Below are positions 10,013 through 17,285 of a DNA stretch of 64,000 bases, in pieces. Below the pieces are notes generated by a model that worked only from the letters and a program-made list of their open reading frames with translations, ran no database searches and was not told the origin of the DNA. The position numbers and the translations under genes are program-made. Origin of the DNA: an uncultured Hydrocarboniphaga sp. Lineage in GTDB: Bacteria; Pseudomonadota; Gammaproteobacteria; Nevskiales; Nevskiaceae. How positions within the stretch are numbered: position 1 is the first letter of the stretch; each line of letters starts with the position of its first letter. The stretch lies in the NCBI GenBank assembly GCA_964246995.1, contig CAXTSJ010000010.1, positions 4,171 through 68,170 of the forward strand, written 5' to 3'.

Positions 10013-10795
10013 TTATCCAGCCGGCCCCGGCAACACATAAAACAGCACGCAGAAAAAGTGGAACAGGCTGCCGGTCAGCACGAAGCCGTGCCAGATGGCG
10101 TGGTGATAGCGCAACCGGTGCCAGACATAGAAGATGGTGCCGAGGCTGTAGGCCAGCCCGCCAGCGGCGAGCAGCCACAGGCCGGGGTTGTCGATCAGAT
10201 GGATCAGTGGTCTGGCGACGACGATGCCGCACCAGCCCATCAACAGATACACCGCCAGCGACAGATATTCGAAGCGGCCCGTGGTGAAGATCTTGAAGAT
10301 GATGCCGACGGTCGCCAGCCCCCAGGTGAAGCCGAACAGCGGCCAGCCCCAGGGCGTGTCGTGCAGCGTGATCAGCGTGAACGGCGTGTAGGTGCCGGCG
10401 ATCAGGACATAGATGCAACAGTGGTCGATGATGCGAAACACATGCTTGGTGCGCGGCATCGGCAGGCTGTGGAACAGGGTGCTGGCGGCGTACATCAGGA
10501 TCAGCGCCGCGCCGAAGATGCTGCTGGCGACGATGTGGCGGGTGTCGCCGTACAGCGCCGAGCGGGTGACCAGAATGCACAGCCCGGCGATGGCGAGCAG
10601 TGTGCCAAAGCCGTGGCTCAGACCGTGCGCGAGTTCCTCGCCGACACTGTAGAAATTGGACCGCGCCTGCGCAACCAGGAGCCTGGCGCGCTCGACGCCG
10701 GCGTCGGTGTCGTCCGGTTCTTTCGTTTCACCGCTGATCAGTGTTCTCCAATGGCCGGCTGTCGTTTGAGACCCTAGGGTCGCACCGCGCCGCAT
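10013..10795 (-). CDS. Hemolysin III / PAQR family membrane protein (TrhA/YqfA-like)
   Basis: EELAHGLSH, STLFHS, DHCCIYVLIAGTYTP, HAIWHGFV; several hydrophobic helices; start uncertain (10846, 10795 or CTG 10741). Confidence 0.92.
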   Translation of the reverse strand: MRRGATLGSQTTAGHWRTLISGETKEPDDTDAGVERARLLVAQARSNFYSVGEELAHGLSHGFGTLLAIAGLCILVTRSALYGDTRHIVASSIFGAALILMYAASTLFHSLPMPRTKHVFRIIDHCCIYVLIAGTYTPFTLITLHDTPWGWPLFGFTWGLATVGIIFKIFTTGRFEYLSLAVYLLMGWCGIVVARPLIHLIDNPGLWLLAAGGLAYSLGTIFYVWHRLRYHHAIWHGFVLTGSLFHFFCVLFYVLPGPAG

Positions 10796-10798
10796 CGA

Positions 10799-10845
10799 TT
10801 GACAGCAATCATCGCCCCACCTAGCCTGCGCATGCCATATGCGCA
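10799..10845 (+). promoter_or_regulatory. Sigma70 promoter and palindromic operator upstream of ccdA
   Basis: TTGACA (10799-10804), 17-bp spacer, TAGCCT (10822-10827); inverted repeat TGCGCAT-N5-ATGCGCA (10827-10845). Confidence 0.65.
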
Positions 10846-10867
10846 TCGACCGTTTCTGGAGTCTGCC

Positions 10868-11131
10868 ATGACTGACTCACCCGCCCGCAAAGCCACCAAC
10901 ATCAGCCTCGACGCCAAGCTGCTGCTCGAAGCGCGCGAGCTGGAGGTGAACGTTTCGCGCGCCTGCGAAGTCGGGTTGGCGGACGAGGTGCGCAAGCGGC
11001 GCTGGGCCAAGTGGCAGGAGGACAATCGCGAGGCCATCGAAGCTTACAACCAGTATGTCGCTACCCATGGCTTAGCTGCCGAACATCTTTATGGTCATCT
11101 CGCTCGCGAGCGCGACGATGGTGCAGTTTGA
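10868..11131 (+). CDS. ccdA: Type II toxin-antitoxin antitoxin CcdA
   Basis: RKATNISLD...NVSRACEVGL...WQEDNREAIEAYN pattern; GGAG RBS before ATG 10868. Confidence 0.9.
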   Translation: MTDSPARKATNISLDAKLLLEARELEVNVSRACEVGLADEVRKRRWAKWQEDNREAIEAYNQYVATHGLAAEHLYGHLARERDDGAV

Positions 11132-11428
11132 CGTTTTCGCAAATCCTCTCAAGGTGCTCCGCGCGGAGTTCCCTTACGTGGTCGATGTGCAGAGCAGCTT
11201 TCTAGAAGCCATCGACACGCGAGTCGTCGTCCTGCTAGGTACCCAGCACAGTTCCTGCCACTGCCGCATCTGGCGTTTTTAGTAGCGGTAGACGGCCACT
11301 CACTCTGGTTTTATCCCGCGCAGATTTTAACGCTGAGAAAATTCAGCCTCGGTCGCGCCGTAATCAACCTATCCGCTCAACGCGACGCCATCATCGCCGC
11401 GCTCGACCGACTCATCACTGGCATTTAA
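11118..11428 (+). pseudogene. ccdB: CcdB toxin, frameshifted by one missing base
   Basis: The N-half MVQFDVFANP...VDVQS...TRVVVLL runs to a stop at 11282. The C-half PAQFLPLPH...[15 protein letters not shown] lies in the -1 frame and ends at TAA 11426-11428. The 311-bp span is one base short of 104 codons. Confidence 0.85.
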
Positions 11429-13662
11429 TGAACCCCCTCGACCCCAACGAAGCCATCAGCGAAACCGAACGCGTCCCCCTGCGCGTCTTCGCCGAAAAAG
11501 CCTATCTCGACTACTCGATGTATGTGGTGCTCGACCGCGCGCTGCCGCATGTGGCGGACGGCCTCAAGCCGGTGCAGCGCCGCATCATCTATGCGATGAA
11601 CGAGCTGGGCATCACCGCCACCGCCAAGCACCGCAAGTCGGCGCTGACGGTGGGCGATGTCATCGGCAAGTTCCATCCGCATGGCGACTCGGCGTGCTAC
11701 GAGGCGATGGTGACGATGGCGCAGCCCTTCAACTACCGCTATCCGCTGGTGGACGGGCAGGGCAATTGGGGCTCGCCCGATGACCCCAAGTCCTTCGCCG
11801 CGTATCGCTACACCGAATCGCGGCTGACCCACTACGCGCAGACCCTGCTCGGCGAAGTCGACCAGGGCACGGTGGACTGGCTGCCGACGTTCGACGGCAC
11901 GCGCGACGAGCCGCGCCAGTTGCCGGCGCGGCTACCGAACATCCTGGTCAACGGCACCACCGGCATCGCCGTGGGCATGGCGACGGACATTCCGCCGCAC
12001 AACATCCGCGAACTCGCAGTGGCCTGCATTCACCTGCTCAAGCATCCGAACGCGCAGCTGGAAACGCTGATGGATTTCATCCCCGGCCCCGACTTCCCCA
12101 CGGGTTGCGAGATCGTCTCCGAGCCGCACGACTTGCTGAAGATCTACTCGACCGGTAACGGCCAGGTACGGGCTCGTGCGCGCTGGGAGAAAGAGGAAGA
12201 CACCGGCTCGATCGTCATCACCCATCTGCCTTATCAAGTGTCCGGCTCACGCATCCAGGAGCAGATCGCCGAGCAGATGCGGGCGAAGAAGCTGCCGATC
12301 GTCGAGGACGTGCGCGACGAATCCGACCACGAGAATCCGACGCGCATCGTCATCATCCCGCGCAGCAATCGCGTCGATGCCGAAGTGCTGATGGCGCATC
12401 TGTTCGCGACCACCGATCTGGAACGCGGCTACCGGGTCAACCTCAACATGATCGGCCTGGACGGTCGTCCGCGGGTGAAGAATCTGCGCGACATCCTCAC
12501 CGAGTGGCTGAGCTTCCGTTTCAACACGGTCACGCGCCGGCTCAATCATCGGCTGCAGAAGGTCAACGATCGCCTGCACCTGCTGGAAGGCTTGCTGATC
12601 GCGTTCCTCAATCTGGACGAGGTGATCCGCATCATCCGTTTCGAGGACGAGCCGCGCGCCAGGCTGATGCGCACGTTTGCGCTCTCCGAGACGCAGACCG
12701 ATTACATCCTCGACACGCGCCTGCGCCAGTTGCAGCGTCTAGAAGAGATGAAGATCAAGGGCGAGCAGGCCGAGCTCGCGGCCGAGCGCGCTGGACTCGA
12801 AGATCTGCTGGGTGACGACGACAAGCTCAAGAAGCTGATTGCTGCTGAGATCAAGGAAGACGCCAAGACGCATGGCGACGAGCGTCGCTGCCCGATCAAC
12901 GCCAAGCCGCCGGCGGTGGCGATGTCGCTGACGGAAATCACGCCGGCCGAACCGGTGACGGTGGTGATCTCCAAGGCCGGCTGGATTCGCGCCGGCAAGG
13001 GCCACGATCTCGACCCGACCGCGCTTTCGTACAAGAGCGGCGATGAATACCTCGCGCACGCCATCGGCAAGACCAATCAACTCCTGATCCTGCTCGACAG
13101 CCGGGGCCGCTGCTACACGCTCAATCCGCGCGAGCTGCCGTCCGCGCGCTCGCAAGGCGAGCCGGTGACGACCAAGCTCGATCTGCAGGACAAGGCGCGC
13201 ATCGTCGCGCTGATCATGGGCGAGGAGACCGATCGCTATGTGCTGGGCTCATCCGAGGGCTACGGCTTCCAGACGCGCCTCGGTGAATTGCAGGCGCGCA
13301 ACAAGGCAGGCAAGGCGGTGATCACGCTCGAAGGCCAGCCGCTCACGCCGGCGTTGACCCGGGATGCGGGAGATCGCTTTGCCCTGGTCACCGCAGAAGG
13401 CCGGCTGCTGATCTTTTCCATCGCCGATCTGCCGGAGCTGTCCAAAGGCAAAGGCAACAAACTGGTCACATTGAAGGGCGAAGATCGCATCGTCGCCAGT
13501 GCGGTGGTGCCGGTGGGTACCGCCCTGGTGCTGACCTGCGGCAAACGCACGCTGACGCTCAAGGCCAACGACATCGCGGCCTACACCGCCGCCCGCGCCT
13601 CCCGTGGCAATCACTTGCCGCGGGGGTATCAGACGGTGGATCGGATGGCGGCGGTGGTGTAG
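11428..13662 (+). CDS. parC: DNA topoisomerase IV subunit A
   Basis: [28 protein letters not shown], catalytic RY in [10 protein letters not shown]; 744 aa with no GyrA-box. Confidence 0.96.
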
Positions 13663-13749: not shown

Positions 13750-14616
13750 ATGAAACGCATCTTCCTGTTCCTCGCCACCAACATTGCCGTGATGCTGGTG
13801 CTGTCGGTCGTTGCCTCGCTGCTCGGCGTCGATCGTTATCTCACCGCCAATGGCCTGAACCTGCCGGCCCTGCTCGCGTTCTCGGCGATCTTCGGCTTCG
13901 GCGGCTCGTTCATTTCGCTGTTCATGTCGAAGTGGCTGGCCAAGCGCTCGACTGGCGCGACCGTCATCACCCAGCCGCGCAATTCGGCCGAAGCCTGGTT
14001 GCTCGCTACGGTCGAACGCCTGGCGCGGGCCGCCGGTATCGGCATGCCAGAAGTCGCGGTGTACGACGCGCCCGATCCCAACGCATTCGCCACCGGCGCC
14101 ACCAAGAACTCATCCCTGGTCGCGGTCAGCACCGGCCTTCTGCGCAGCATGAGCCAGGACGAGATCGAGGCGGTGCTGGCGCACGAGGTCAGCCATATCG
14201 CCAACGGCGACATGGTTACGCTCACGCTGATCCAGGGTGTACTCAACACCTTCGTCATGTTCCTGTCGCGCGTCGTCGGTTACGTCATTGACAAGGCCGT
14301 GTTCAAGACCGAGCGCGGCACGGGCGCGGGCTACTTCATCACGGTGATGGTGCTGCAGATCGTCTTCGGCATCCTGGCTTCGATGATCGTCGCCTGGTTC
14401 TCGCGCCAGCGGGAGTTCCGTGCCGACGCCGGGTCGGCGCACCTGGCGGGCAAGCGCAAGATGATCGCCGCACTGCAGAAGCTCGGCGGTGCGCACGTCG
14501 CCTCGACCTTGCCGCCGCAGCAGATGGCCTTCGGCATTGCTGGCGGTGCACGCGAGTGGTTTGCGACCCATCCGTCGATCGAAAAGCGCATCGCGGCACT
14601 GCAGGCCGCGGCCTAG
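13750..14616 (+). CDS. htpX: Zinc metalloprotease HtpX
   Basis: [11 protein letters not shown] start, PNAFATG, HEVSH zinc motif, [13 protein letters not shown]. Confidence 0.96.
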
Positions 14617-14624
14617 TCGGGCCG

Positions 14625-17050
14625 TCAAAAATCCCAAAGGACGCGCAGACCGAATTCACGCGGCGGCGCCAGTGTCTTGGTGAGGCCGAAGTCGTTCTGG
14701 AACTGCTGGATGTGATAGCGCTCGTTGAGCGCGTTCTTGGCGAACACCGTGACCCGCGTTTTCCAGGGGTCGTATAGATAGCTCACGCGGCCGCCGAGCG
14801 TCGAGTAGGCCTTCTCCTTCACGGTGTTGAAGGCGTCGTAGTAGAAGCCTGAGTTGAAGTAGTTGTCGATCGCGAATTCCAGGCTGCCGTTCTGCAGGTC
14901 CACCGCCTGTACCAGGCCGACGCTGCCCGAGTTTTTGGGCGCGCGCACGATCTTGTTGCCCGAGCAATCCAGGTTGGCCGCGTACAGGCCGCTGCCCTCG
15001 CGGAAGCCCGGGCAAGGATTGAAGTCGTCGTACTGGGCGTCGACGTAAGCGGCGTTGAACGAGATCGCAAGGCCCGGATCGAAGTCCGGGAACGGCAGAG
15101 CGGTGCCGTCGACCTCCACGCCGCGCGTGGTCGCCGAGCCGGCGTTGATGAACTGCACCGCGCCGCCCGAAAGCACCGACACGAAGCCCGACTGCAGATC
15201 GGTGATCTTATTGTTGAAGACCGCGCCGTTGATGCGCAACAGGTGGTTGAAGAAATCCACCTTGGCGCCGAGCTCGTACGTGGTGACTTTTTCCGGCTTG
15301 ATGTATTTGGGCGGAATGTAGATGTTGACGACGTTGTAGGTGCCGCTCTTGTAGCCGACGCCATAGGACGCATACACCAGCGCGTTCTCGCGCGGATGCG
15401 CGCTGAGCACGACCTTCGGCGAGAAATTCTTCGCGGTCGCGCTCGGCAGATCGAACTGCAGGGCTTTCTGGTCGAACTCGATGACCGGGACCGTGAAGTC
15501 GGTCTCCGACTTGGTCAGAAAGCGCTTCTCCTCCTGATAGCGGCCGCCCAAGGTGAGATCGAAGAATTCGTCGAAGTAATAGGTGCCCTGGGCGTAGCCG
15601 GAAGTGCTCTTGGTGCCGAGTACGCCGCTGAACTGGATCGTCAGGCCGTCGTCGCCCAGCGGCGAGCCATTGCTGATCGGCAGACCGCTGATGGCGTCGA
15701 GGACCCTGTTGAACGCATCCGGTATCGGCAGCCCGAACGAGCTTGCGAGATTGGCGAAACTGGTGAGCGCCTGCGGCGCAACGCGCAGGTGCGCGGGGTC
15801 GAAGCCCGCTCTGCTCCGGAGGTAGTAAAGGCCGGCGACCCATTTGAATTTGTCGGAGCCCGGCGTGTCGGCGTTGGACAGGAATTGCAGCTCGTAGGTC
15901 TGCAGCTTGCTGAACTCGTTGAGCGCGTCGAAGGCCGCGATCGGGATCGCCGAGCCGTCGAAGTCGATCGTCGCCGGGCCGGTCACGATCTCCTGATGGC
16001 TGCCGAGCAGTTTCACGTCGAACCAGGGCAGCGTCCAGGTGGCATTGCCGTAGTAGATGTCCTGCGTCGCCTTATCGGGCGGATGATTCAGATCGGTGTC
16101 GGAGTCGAAGTTGTCCTCGGCTGGCATGATGCCCGCCGCAGTGCCGACCAGCGTCGGGTCGGTGTTGTTGCCGAAGGTGCTGCTGTAGCCCGTCTGCTGG
16201 GTGTTGTAGGAGGTGAGGTTGAGCGACGCTCGTCGGCCGGGTGGATGCTGGCTTTGAAGCGGTAGGCATAGGACTTGGTCTTCGGCAGATCGAAGTTGGT
16301 GGCGTCGTAATAATTGTCCTGGGTCTTGTAGACCCCGGCGCCGCTGACCGATAGCCAGTCCACCACCGGTAGCGTCACCGATCCCTTGACCTGGCGGCTG
16401 TTGAAATTGCCCAGCTCGCTTTCGATCTGCGCCTTGAAGATGTTGCCCGGATCCTCCGTGATGACGCTGATGGCGCCGCCGGTGGCGTTGCGGCCGAACA
16501 GCGTGCCCTGCGGGCCTTTGAGCACCTCCACGCGCTGCACGTTGCCCAGCGACTGCGCCTCGGTGTGGCCCTGCGGTACATAGATGCCATCGATATACGT
16601 GGCGATGCTGGGGTCCGCCGAGGGGATGAAATTATCGGTGCCGATGCCGCGCAGGAAGATCAGGGTGAAGCCGGCGACGTCGGTGAACTGCAGGCTCGGC
16701 ACCACTTGCCCGAGCTGATAGGTGTTCTCGACGCCGCGCGCGGCAATGGCCTCGCCACTGAAGGCCTGGATCGAGATCGGCACGTCCTGCAGTTTTTCCT
16801 CGCGCTTCTGGGCGGTCACCACGACCTCTTCCACGATGCGGTTGCGCACCGCCGGCGACGAGGGCGCCGGCGCCTGCGGCTCGCGGGCGGGAGATACGGG
16901 GATGGTGTCCAGAGGCTCGTCGGACTGCGGAATCGCTTCCGCTAGAGAAGCTCCGGTGGACACGGCGCCGCTGTCTTGCGCGGCCGATATCGCCGGCGCC
17001 AGCAGCGCGCCGGCAGTGATTACACCCAGCAACAGGCTGTTGAATTGCAC
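14625..17050 (-). pseudogene. TonB-dependent receptor, frameshifted near 16227
   Basis: N-part has a signal peptide, EEVVVTAQKRE and VEVLKGPQGTLFGRNA; C-part is a barrel ending LWDF. The frames join if one base is restored in GAG C-G TCG (16228/16227). GTG 17050 follows GGAGAG. Confidence 0.85.
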
Positions 17051-17285
17051 GGGCTCTCCTCCGTCGAAGCGGAGTGGAGGCACTGGCGCATTTGGCCGGT
17101 GCTCCACTCTCGGTTTTGGTGATGCCGCAGACTATCAAATCGTGCAGGTAAGGTAGCGATCGCTTGTTCGGCTGGCTGCTGGGGCCCCGGCACGCCTGCC
17201 CCTGGCAACAGCTACAGCGGCGGCGCCGCATGATTTAAGATCGCGTCCTAACGATTTACTACCTTGCCGATCGGGAACGAACGCC

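What the first reader, a model, noticed from the sequence alone, without database searches (positions are those of the whole stretch)
10799..13662. ccdAB module translationally coupled to parC, a paralog of the toxin's target
Seen: promoter, ccdA, ccdB (overlapping the ccdA stop), then the ccdB TAA overlapping the parC ATG (TAATG, 11426-11430), with no intergenic space. Established: CcdB poisons gyrase through GyrA Arg462; ParC is the GyrA paralog; CcdA:CcdB autorepresses its operon. This ParC keeps Arg at the equivalent site (ILDTRLRQL, codon 12718-12720) where E. coli ParC has Lys, although other ParCs also have Arg. Inference: Topo IV expression may be wired to TA autoregulation, the module may be protected by sitting in front of an essential gene, or this CcdB may act on Topo IV.
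Basis: partly seen in the sequence, partly recalled or inferred. Interest (0 to 1): 0.8.

Follow-up and report, generated by a model that had tools for sequence, protein, structure and literature searches.

The report
Decaying toxin-antitoxin pair parked before parC
A bacterial toxin-antitoxin pair (ccdAB) sits directly in front of the essential topoisomerase gene parC, but its toxin gene is broken here and unrelated toxin-antitoxin pairs fill the same slot in relatives, so it is most likely an ordinary passenger in a housekeeping operon, one whose toxin gene appears to be swapped between strains and whose promoter likely now drives parC.

Summary
The layout is real: promoter-like site, ccdA, ccdB, and a TAATG overlap with parC. 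But ccdB is frameshifted (Pfam hits in two frames) and stops 145 nt before parC, so the overlap cannot couple translation in this sequence. The junction is confined to Hydrocarboniphaga: intact in H. effusa (parE-ccdAB-parC), a remnant in H. daqingensis, absent in three congeners, and a GTDB-wide pattern scan found only those two. Controls deflate the ParC story: 10 of 122 family genomes carry PIN- or HicA-type modules in the same slot, three overlapping the parC start; 24 of 30 other family ccdB loci abut pyrF, six with the same one-base overlap; the ParC Arg occurs in 11 of 30 relatives, 9 without ccd. Two features remain worth noting: an H. effusa-like contig has a ccdB core 58% identical within 99.4-99.6% identical flanks (inferred in-place allele swap), and here parE has moved away, so parC likely relies on the ccd promoter. 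CcdB action on Topo IV is untested; the complex predictor was unavailable. The scan's earlier notes held nothing on this arrangement.

The parts
10013..10702 (-). hlyIII-family membrane protein gene, divergent from ccdA (ORF listed from 10846; true start likely nearer 10700)
   Evidence: PF03006 E 1e-37; same hlyIII-ccdA adjacency on contigs of runs X1-X4
10799..10827 (+). likely sigma70 promoter, TTGACA-17-TAGCCT
   Evidence: only site in relaxed scan of 10700-11430; positional equivalent in H. effusa; missed by the strict scan
10827..10845 (.). tandem TGCGCA palindromes, likely CcdA operator overlapping the -10 box
   Evidence: similar tandem motif matched before ccdA in 23 of 30 family loci; 6 such tandems in the whole genome
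10868..11131 (+). ccdA antitoxin, intact, 87 aa
   Evidence: PF07362 E 7e-24; 68% identical to H. effusa CcdA
11118..11282 (+). ccdB 5' part; CcdB-like to about 11246, then out of frame to TAG 11280-11282
   Evidence: 31 of 41 residues identical to intact P0003
11246..11428 (+). ccdB 3' part in another frame, ending [12 protein letters not shown]; last 15 codons conserved among alleles
   Evidence: 41 of 59 residues identical to P0003
11426..11430 (+). TAATG stop-start overlap with parC
   Evidence: TGATG in H. effusa and H. daqingensis
11428..13662 (+). parC, topoisomerase IV subunit A, 744 aa; R431 at 12718-12720
   Evidence: PF00521, PF03989; 89% to H. effusa ParC
13750..14616 (+). htpX-like M48 peptidase, conserved downstream neighbour of parC
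   Evidence: PF01435; present after parC in 30 of 30 loci

Best explanation
This is a chromosomal ccdAB toxin-antitoxin module with a frameshifted toxin gene, which likely inserted into the parE-parC junction of a Hydrocarboniphaga ancestor as a passenger and likely has no special link to Topo IV. Such modules carry their own autoregulated promoter and no terminator, so they are tolerated in front of housekeeping genes, and the downstream start codon ends up on the toxin stop. In this lineage parE later moved away, so parC likely reads from the ccd promoter; with CcdB broken, CcdA alone would repress weakly and parC would be transcribed steadily. The ccdA 5' part and the last 15 ccdB codons, which hold parC's start region, likely act as fixed homology arms between which the toxin core is exchanged, broken or deleted. 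Intact alleles are predicted to poison gyrase through GyrA, like other CcdB proteins.
For: Shown: parE directly precedes parC (200 nt or less) in 52 of 122 family loci and ccdAB lies between them in H. effusa. Other modules sit in the slot in 10 of 122 loci: 8 with Pfam PIN or HicA toxins, one PIN-like gene 60% identical to two of them, one decayed PIN; three overlap the parC start by 4 or 8 nt. ccdB occurs in 62 of 129 family genomes but next to parC in only 2 (coordinates compared by eye; 59 have both genes matched). 24 of the 30 best-scoring ccdB loci abut pyrF within -4 to +14 nt, 6 with a one-base overlap. ParC Arg in 11 of 30, 9 without ccd; the remnant-bearing H. daqingensis has Lys. 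Decay or loss: frameshift here, 3' remnant in H. daqingensis and two metagenome contigs, none in G005, sister to H. effusa on the ParC tree. Allele exchange: L164 versus H. effusa 57.8% over the ccdB core, 45 of 45 over the tail, 99.4% over parC; close relatives in runs X1, X3, X5, X6 align over ccdA, tail and parC but not the core. GyrA keeps Arg in ILEMRL. Literature: PMC7167474 section 16; PMC5389731 passages; PMC1635281 passage.
Against: The junction survives in two ParC clades of the genus and intact, in-frame alleles persist (P0003, P0005-P0010), so some selection keeps ccdB here. All carriers of a full-length ccdB at this site whose ParC was read have Arg, and the only Lys carrier holds a remnant (few independent cases). 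No baseline was measured for how often other junctions carry such modules. Promoter use, co-transcription and toxin target were not measured. The GTDB scan would miss about 30% of such junctions.
Confidence: 0.72

Rival explanations
1. Selected regulatory wiring: CcdA:CcdB autorepression sets Topo IV subunit A levels, so that freeing CcdB (gyrase poisoning) raises parC expression as compensation.
For: One promoter-like site and a conserved operator-like repeat upstream, none found inside ccdB; parE is on another contig, away from its end, and the upstream gene is divergent; same layout in relatives from three studies. Ratio-dependent repression is established for F ccdAB (PMC5389731, passages).
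Against: ccdB is broken here, which removes the co-repressor; parE, the other subunit, is outside the circuit; congeners lose the module cleanly; other toxin families occupy the slot.
Confidence: 0.12
2. This CcdB lineage targets Topo IV through ParC R431 as well as, or instead of, gyrase.
For: Arg at the equivalent site; CcdB-derived peptides bind ParC and inhibit Topo IV (PMC10886550 section 7, a review; primary paper not held); a preprint infers Topo IV as a secondary target from E. coli genetics (10.1101/2021.09.24.461737, passages).
Against: The Arg is present in 9 relatives without ccd and in PDB 6BQ9 ParC; cognate GyrA keeps its Arg; the CcdB C-terminal helix is the ordinary family one; F CcdB inhibited E. 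coli Topo IV only at 10 uM with no cleavage complex (PMC1635281, passage; that ParC has Lys).
Confidence: 0.08
3. The frameshift is an assembly error, and the module is intact and translationally coupled to parC here as in H. effusa.
For: Both halves are stop-free and 69-76% identical to intact P0003; the source reads were not found (best share 0.08); a TonB receptor gene 5 kb away is also split; relatives have 294 letters where the window has 296.
Against: 0 of 116 matched H. effusa ORFs (some are shadow frames) are frame-split in this assembly; the break is not in a homopolymer; decay of toxins at this slot is seen elsewhere. Even if true, the controls against a ParC-specific role stand.
Confidence: 0.15

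Closest known systems
[quoted passage not shown]
   Same: ccdAB between core genes, patchy among relatives, toxin often decayed, slot shared with other elements (PMC7167474 passages and section 16; Mine et al. 2009 not held, details recalled)
   Different: Here the toxin stop overlaps the start of an essential gene that is a paralog of the target, and the toxin core differs sharply between near-identical strains
mazEF in relA-mazG and yafNO in dinB-yafP
   Same: Module inserted in the intercistronic gap of an operon that works without it; another module (parDE) can fill the same gap (PMC7167474 section 16)
   Different: Different toxin families; no sign there that the downstream gene lost its own upstream partner
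Vibrio fischeri CcdB and F-plasmid CcdB (PDB 4ELY, 4ELZ, 1X75)
   Same: H. effusa allele has the same fold (TM 0.88-0.91 to V. fischeri CcdB) and ends in G-F/I
   Different: 33% and 24% identity; operator repeat is TGCGCA-like rather than GTATAC; window copy is frameshifted
hrpA-ccdAB-pyrF-hemE locus of the same family
   Same: ccdB stop at or overlapping the start of a housekeeping gene; CcdB diverges fast (PyrF 93% versus CcdB 46-47% in some pairs)
   Different: Far more common (24 of 30 loci examined); neighbour unrelated to topoisomerases

Membership tests
ccdAB type II toxin-antitoxin system | CcdA antitoxin gene upstream of and overlapping ccdB | tested here: met
   PF07362 over cut-off; 14-nt overlap
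ccdAB type II toxin-antitoxin system | CcdB-family sequence and fold | tested here: met
   PF01845 over cut-off in both halves; H. effusa allele model pLDDT 89.9, best matches CcdB structures
ccdAB type II toxin-antitoxin system | Intact toxin reading frame | tested here: not met
   Frameshift near 11240-11250, stop at 11280; intact in H. effusa and L164. Filed as a decayed member
ccdAB type II toxin-antitoxin system | Autoregulated promoter with short palindromic CcdA sites | tested here: inconclusive
   Conserved promoter-like site and tandem TGCGCA; binding not measured
ccdAB type II toxin-antitoxin system | Toxin poisons gyrase via GyrA and is neutralised by CcdA | not testable with these tools
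   GyrA keeps Arg in ILEMRL; equivalence to E. coli Arg462 is recalled
Toxin-antitoxin module inserted in a housekeeping operon | Flanking genes adjacent in relatives without the module; slot accepts other modules | tested here: met
   parE-parC adjacent in 52 of 122; other modules in 10 of 122
   Frame stops 145 nt upstream; met on sequence only in H. effusa and L164
Topo IV-directed CcdB | Binding to or poisoning of ParC | not tested

The most novel reading that the evidence does not exclude
ccdAB has been locked in front of an essential gene: its promoter drives parC and its last codons hold parC's start, so only the toxin core is free to change, making a variable toxin cassette that strains exchange in place; in intact carriers the CcdA:CcdB switch sets Topo IV supply, and these alleles may act on the Arg-bearing ParC itself, a toxin-target feedback operon.
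Probability: 0.12. Interest if true: 0.7.

Novelty: new member of a known kind. Interest (0 to 1): 0.27.

Why it matters
As read, it is a clean example of a known process: toxin-antitoxin modules settle in housekeeping operons and decay. It adds two testable details, in-place exchange of the toxin core between near-identical strains and likely capture of a toxin-antitoxin promoter by an essential gene, both bearing on the open question of how chromosomal modules move and persist. H. effusa AP103 also offers a natural CcdB with an Arg-bearing ParC, a cheap way to ask whether any full-length CcdB poisons Topo IV.

Tried and rejected
Strict promoter scan found nothing. No run holding the window's own DNA was listed and no RNA holder was listed, so the frameshift and co-transcription could not be checked with reads; laid contigs were relatives. 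A viral-contig search with the CcdB alignment could not run (too diverse). Plasmid search with P0003 gave 175 records, all under 60% identity: no close mobile source. The Arg residue was rejected as a marker. Full protection by the essential gene was rejected given loss and decay. A programmed -1 slip at the T run before TAG 11280 was considered and not supported by any test. The CcdB tree was too weak at the base to say whether parC-linked alleles share one origin. Five paper searches listed no report of ccdAB before parC; none of the 20 listed papers, of 214, held the parE-parC phrases. Two primary papers were not held. No supplements were read.

Full report
Observation. The sequence shows ccdA (10868-11131), a ccdB start at 11118, TAATG at 11426-11430 and parC (11428-13662). 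ccdB is in two frames: the frame from its ATG is CcdB-like to about 11246 and stops at 11280-11282, and the C-terminal half lies in another frame. An intact 103-residue protein, P0003, matches 31 of 41 and 41 of 59 residues of the halves, so the break is recent or an error. No read set of this organism was listed. The assembly shows 0 frame-split genes among 116 matched H. effusa ORFs, some of them shadow frames, but a TonB receptor gene 5 kb away is split too. As sequenced, ccdB ribosomes stop 145 nt before parC, so the overlap does not couple translation. The strict promoter scan found none; a relaxed scan found one site, at 10799-10827, matched in position in H. effusa and followed in both by tandem TGCGCA, a motif matched before ccdA in 23 of 30 family loci. 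Its reading as promoter and CcdA operator is inference.

Distribution. Two same-genus genomes are named Hydrocarboniphaga effusa and H. daqingensis. H. effusa has parE-ccdA-ccdB-parC with an intact 104-residue CcdB and a TGATG overlap; its model has the CcdB fold. H. daqingensis keeps only a 3' remnant on the parC start. G005, G004 and G001 have none there; G005 is sister to H. effusa on the ParC tree with the window outside (100/99), so it likely lost the module. A junction pattern scanned over 185,579 species genomes found only the two named species (the window's own record may be left out), and 4 metagenome contigs, all close to those two species. In family data the pattern halves matched 24 of 30 ccdB ends and 108 of 122 parC starts (120 held the motif, 108 at a covered distance), about 70% recall. 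In the window's genome parE is on another contig, away from its end, and the gene upstream of ccdA is a divergent hlyIII; contigs from three studies show the same hlyIII-ccdA adjacency. So parC likely depends on the ccd promoter in this lineage; this is inferred, not measured.

Controls. ccdB matched in 62 of 129 family genomes and parC in 123 of 129 (these tallies include unpublished G115, which was not fetched); comparing coordinates by eye, only 2 have them together. Of 122 parC upstream regions, 52 have parE within 200 nt, 22 have an insert, and 48 have no parE in the stretch fetched. I scanned the same-strand ORFs of 45-220 residues ending within 800 nt of parC in the latter 70 loci. Ten loci carry other modules: Pfam PIN toxins in L008, L022, L064, L065, L070, L121, L130, HicAB in L029, a PIN-like gene in L061 (no Pfam hit, 60% identical to L064/L065) and a decayed PIN in L091. 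L061, L064 and L065 overlap the parC start by 4, 8 and 8 nt. Of the 30 best-scoring family ccdB loci (of 62 genomes), 24 have pyrF straight downstream, 6 with a one-base overlap. The ParC Arg is in 11 of 30 relatives, 9 of them without ccd at parC, and in PDB 6BQ9; E. coli ParC has Lys. That this position equals GyrA Arg462 is recalled. GyrA of this genome keeps Arg. No baseline for other junctions was measured, so I call the slot recurrently colonised, not a proven hotspot.

Allele turnover. Metagenome locus L164 is 99.4% identical to H. effusa over parC and 99.6% beyond, yet 57.8% over 270 nt of the ccdB core, 86% over the ccdA end, and identical over the last 45 nt of ccdB. Its CcdB is intact and the same protein is recorded on 4 contigs from two sources, though their context is unknown. 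Relatives in runs X1, X3, X6 and X5 (one study) align over ccdA, the ccdB tail and parC but not the core, with 294 or 366 letters in place of 296 or 353. Further alleles end in the same tail as the H. daqingensis remnant. Fast CcdB change also occurs at pyrF. In-place recombination between fixed arms is the inferred mechanism.

Mechanism. Best reading (0.72): a passenger module that inserted in parE-parC, tolerated because it brings a promoter and no terminator; its promoter and last codons are kept because parC uses them, while the toxin core is exchanged, broken or lost. With CcdB broken, repression should be weak, since CcdA alone binds the operator poorly (PMC5389731, passages read). Rivals: selected wiring of Topo IV to the CcdA:CcdB ratio (0.12), Topo IV as target (0.08), and assembly error (0.15, not exclusive). 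For the target idea: CcdB-derived peptides bind ParC (PMC10886550, section 7 and passages read) and a preprint argues for Topo IV from genetics (10.1101/2021.09.24.461737, passages read). Against: F CcdB inhibited E. coli Topo IV only at 10 uM without cleavage complexes (PMC1635281, passage read). The complex predictor was not available.

Comparison and verdict. PMC7167474 (section 16 and passages read) describes this kind: modules inserted in intercistronic gaps such as relA-mazG, dinB-yafP and folA-apaH, with no functional link and with interchangeable occupants. Five searches listed no report of ccdAB before parC. The scan's own notes gave nothing on it beyond an unrelated insertion between parE and parC. 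New member of a known kind; interest 0.27.

Noticed in passing
window 14625-17107 (-): TonB-dependent receptor split into two frames: plug domain in 16088-17107, barrel in 14625-16127; pseudogene or assembly slip.
   Followed up: partly
L032-L060, e.g. L040:784-3295: hrpA-like (DUF3418)-ccdAB-pyrF-hemE is the usual chromosomal ccdAB site in this family, 24 of 30 loci examined, with CcdB diverging much faster than PyrF.
   Followed up: partly
L164:400-800 versus L160:2630-3030: Sharp 58%-identity patch over the ccdA end and ccdB core inside 99.4-99.6% identical DNA; both alleles intact and the same length.
   Followed up: yes
window 10827-10845 and L031-L060 upstream of ccdA: Tandem TGCGCA palindromes conserved before ccdA in 23 of 30 loci, a candidate operator for this CcdA group, unlike the F plasmid GTATAC.
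   Followed up: partly
L008, L022, L029, L061, L064, L065, L070, L091, L121, L130: PIN-type and HicAB modules directly upstream of parC in several genera, one decayed.
   Followed up: yes
L011 and L001-L014 parC genes: The genus splits into two well-supported ParC clades; H. daqingensis belongs to one but starts its parC like the other.
   Followed up: partly
L007, L018, L019, L071, L095, L097, L102, L104, L112, L113, L115, L131: A DUF1249 gene lies upstream of parC in place of parE in 12 loci.
   Followed up: no
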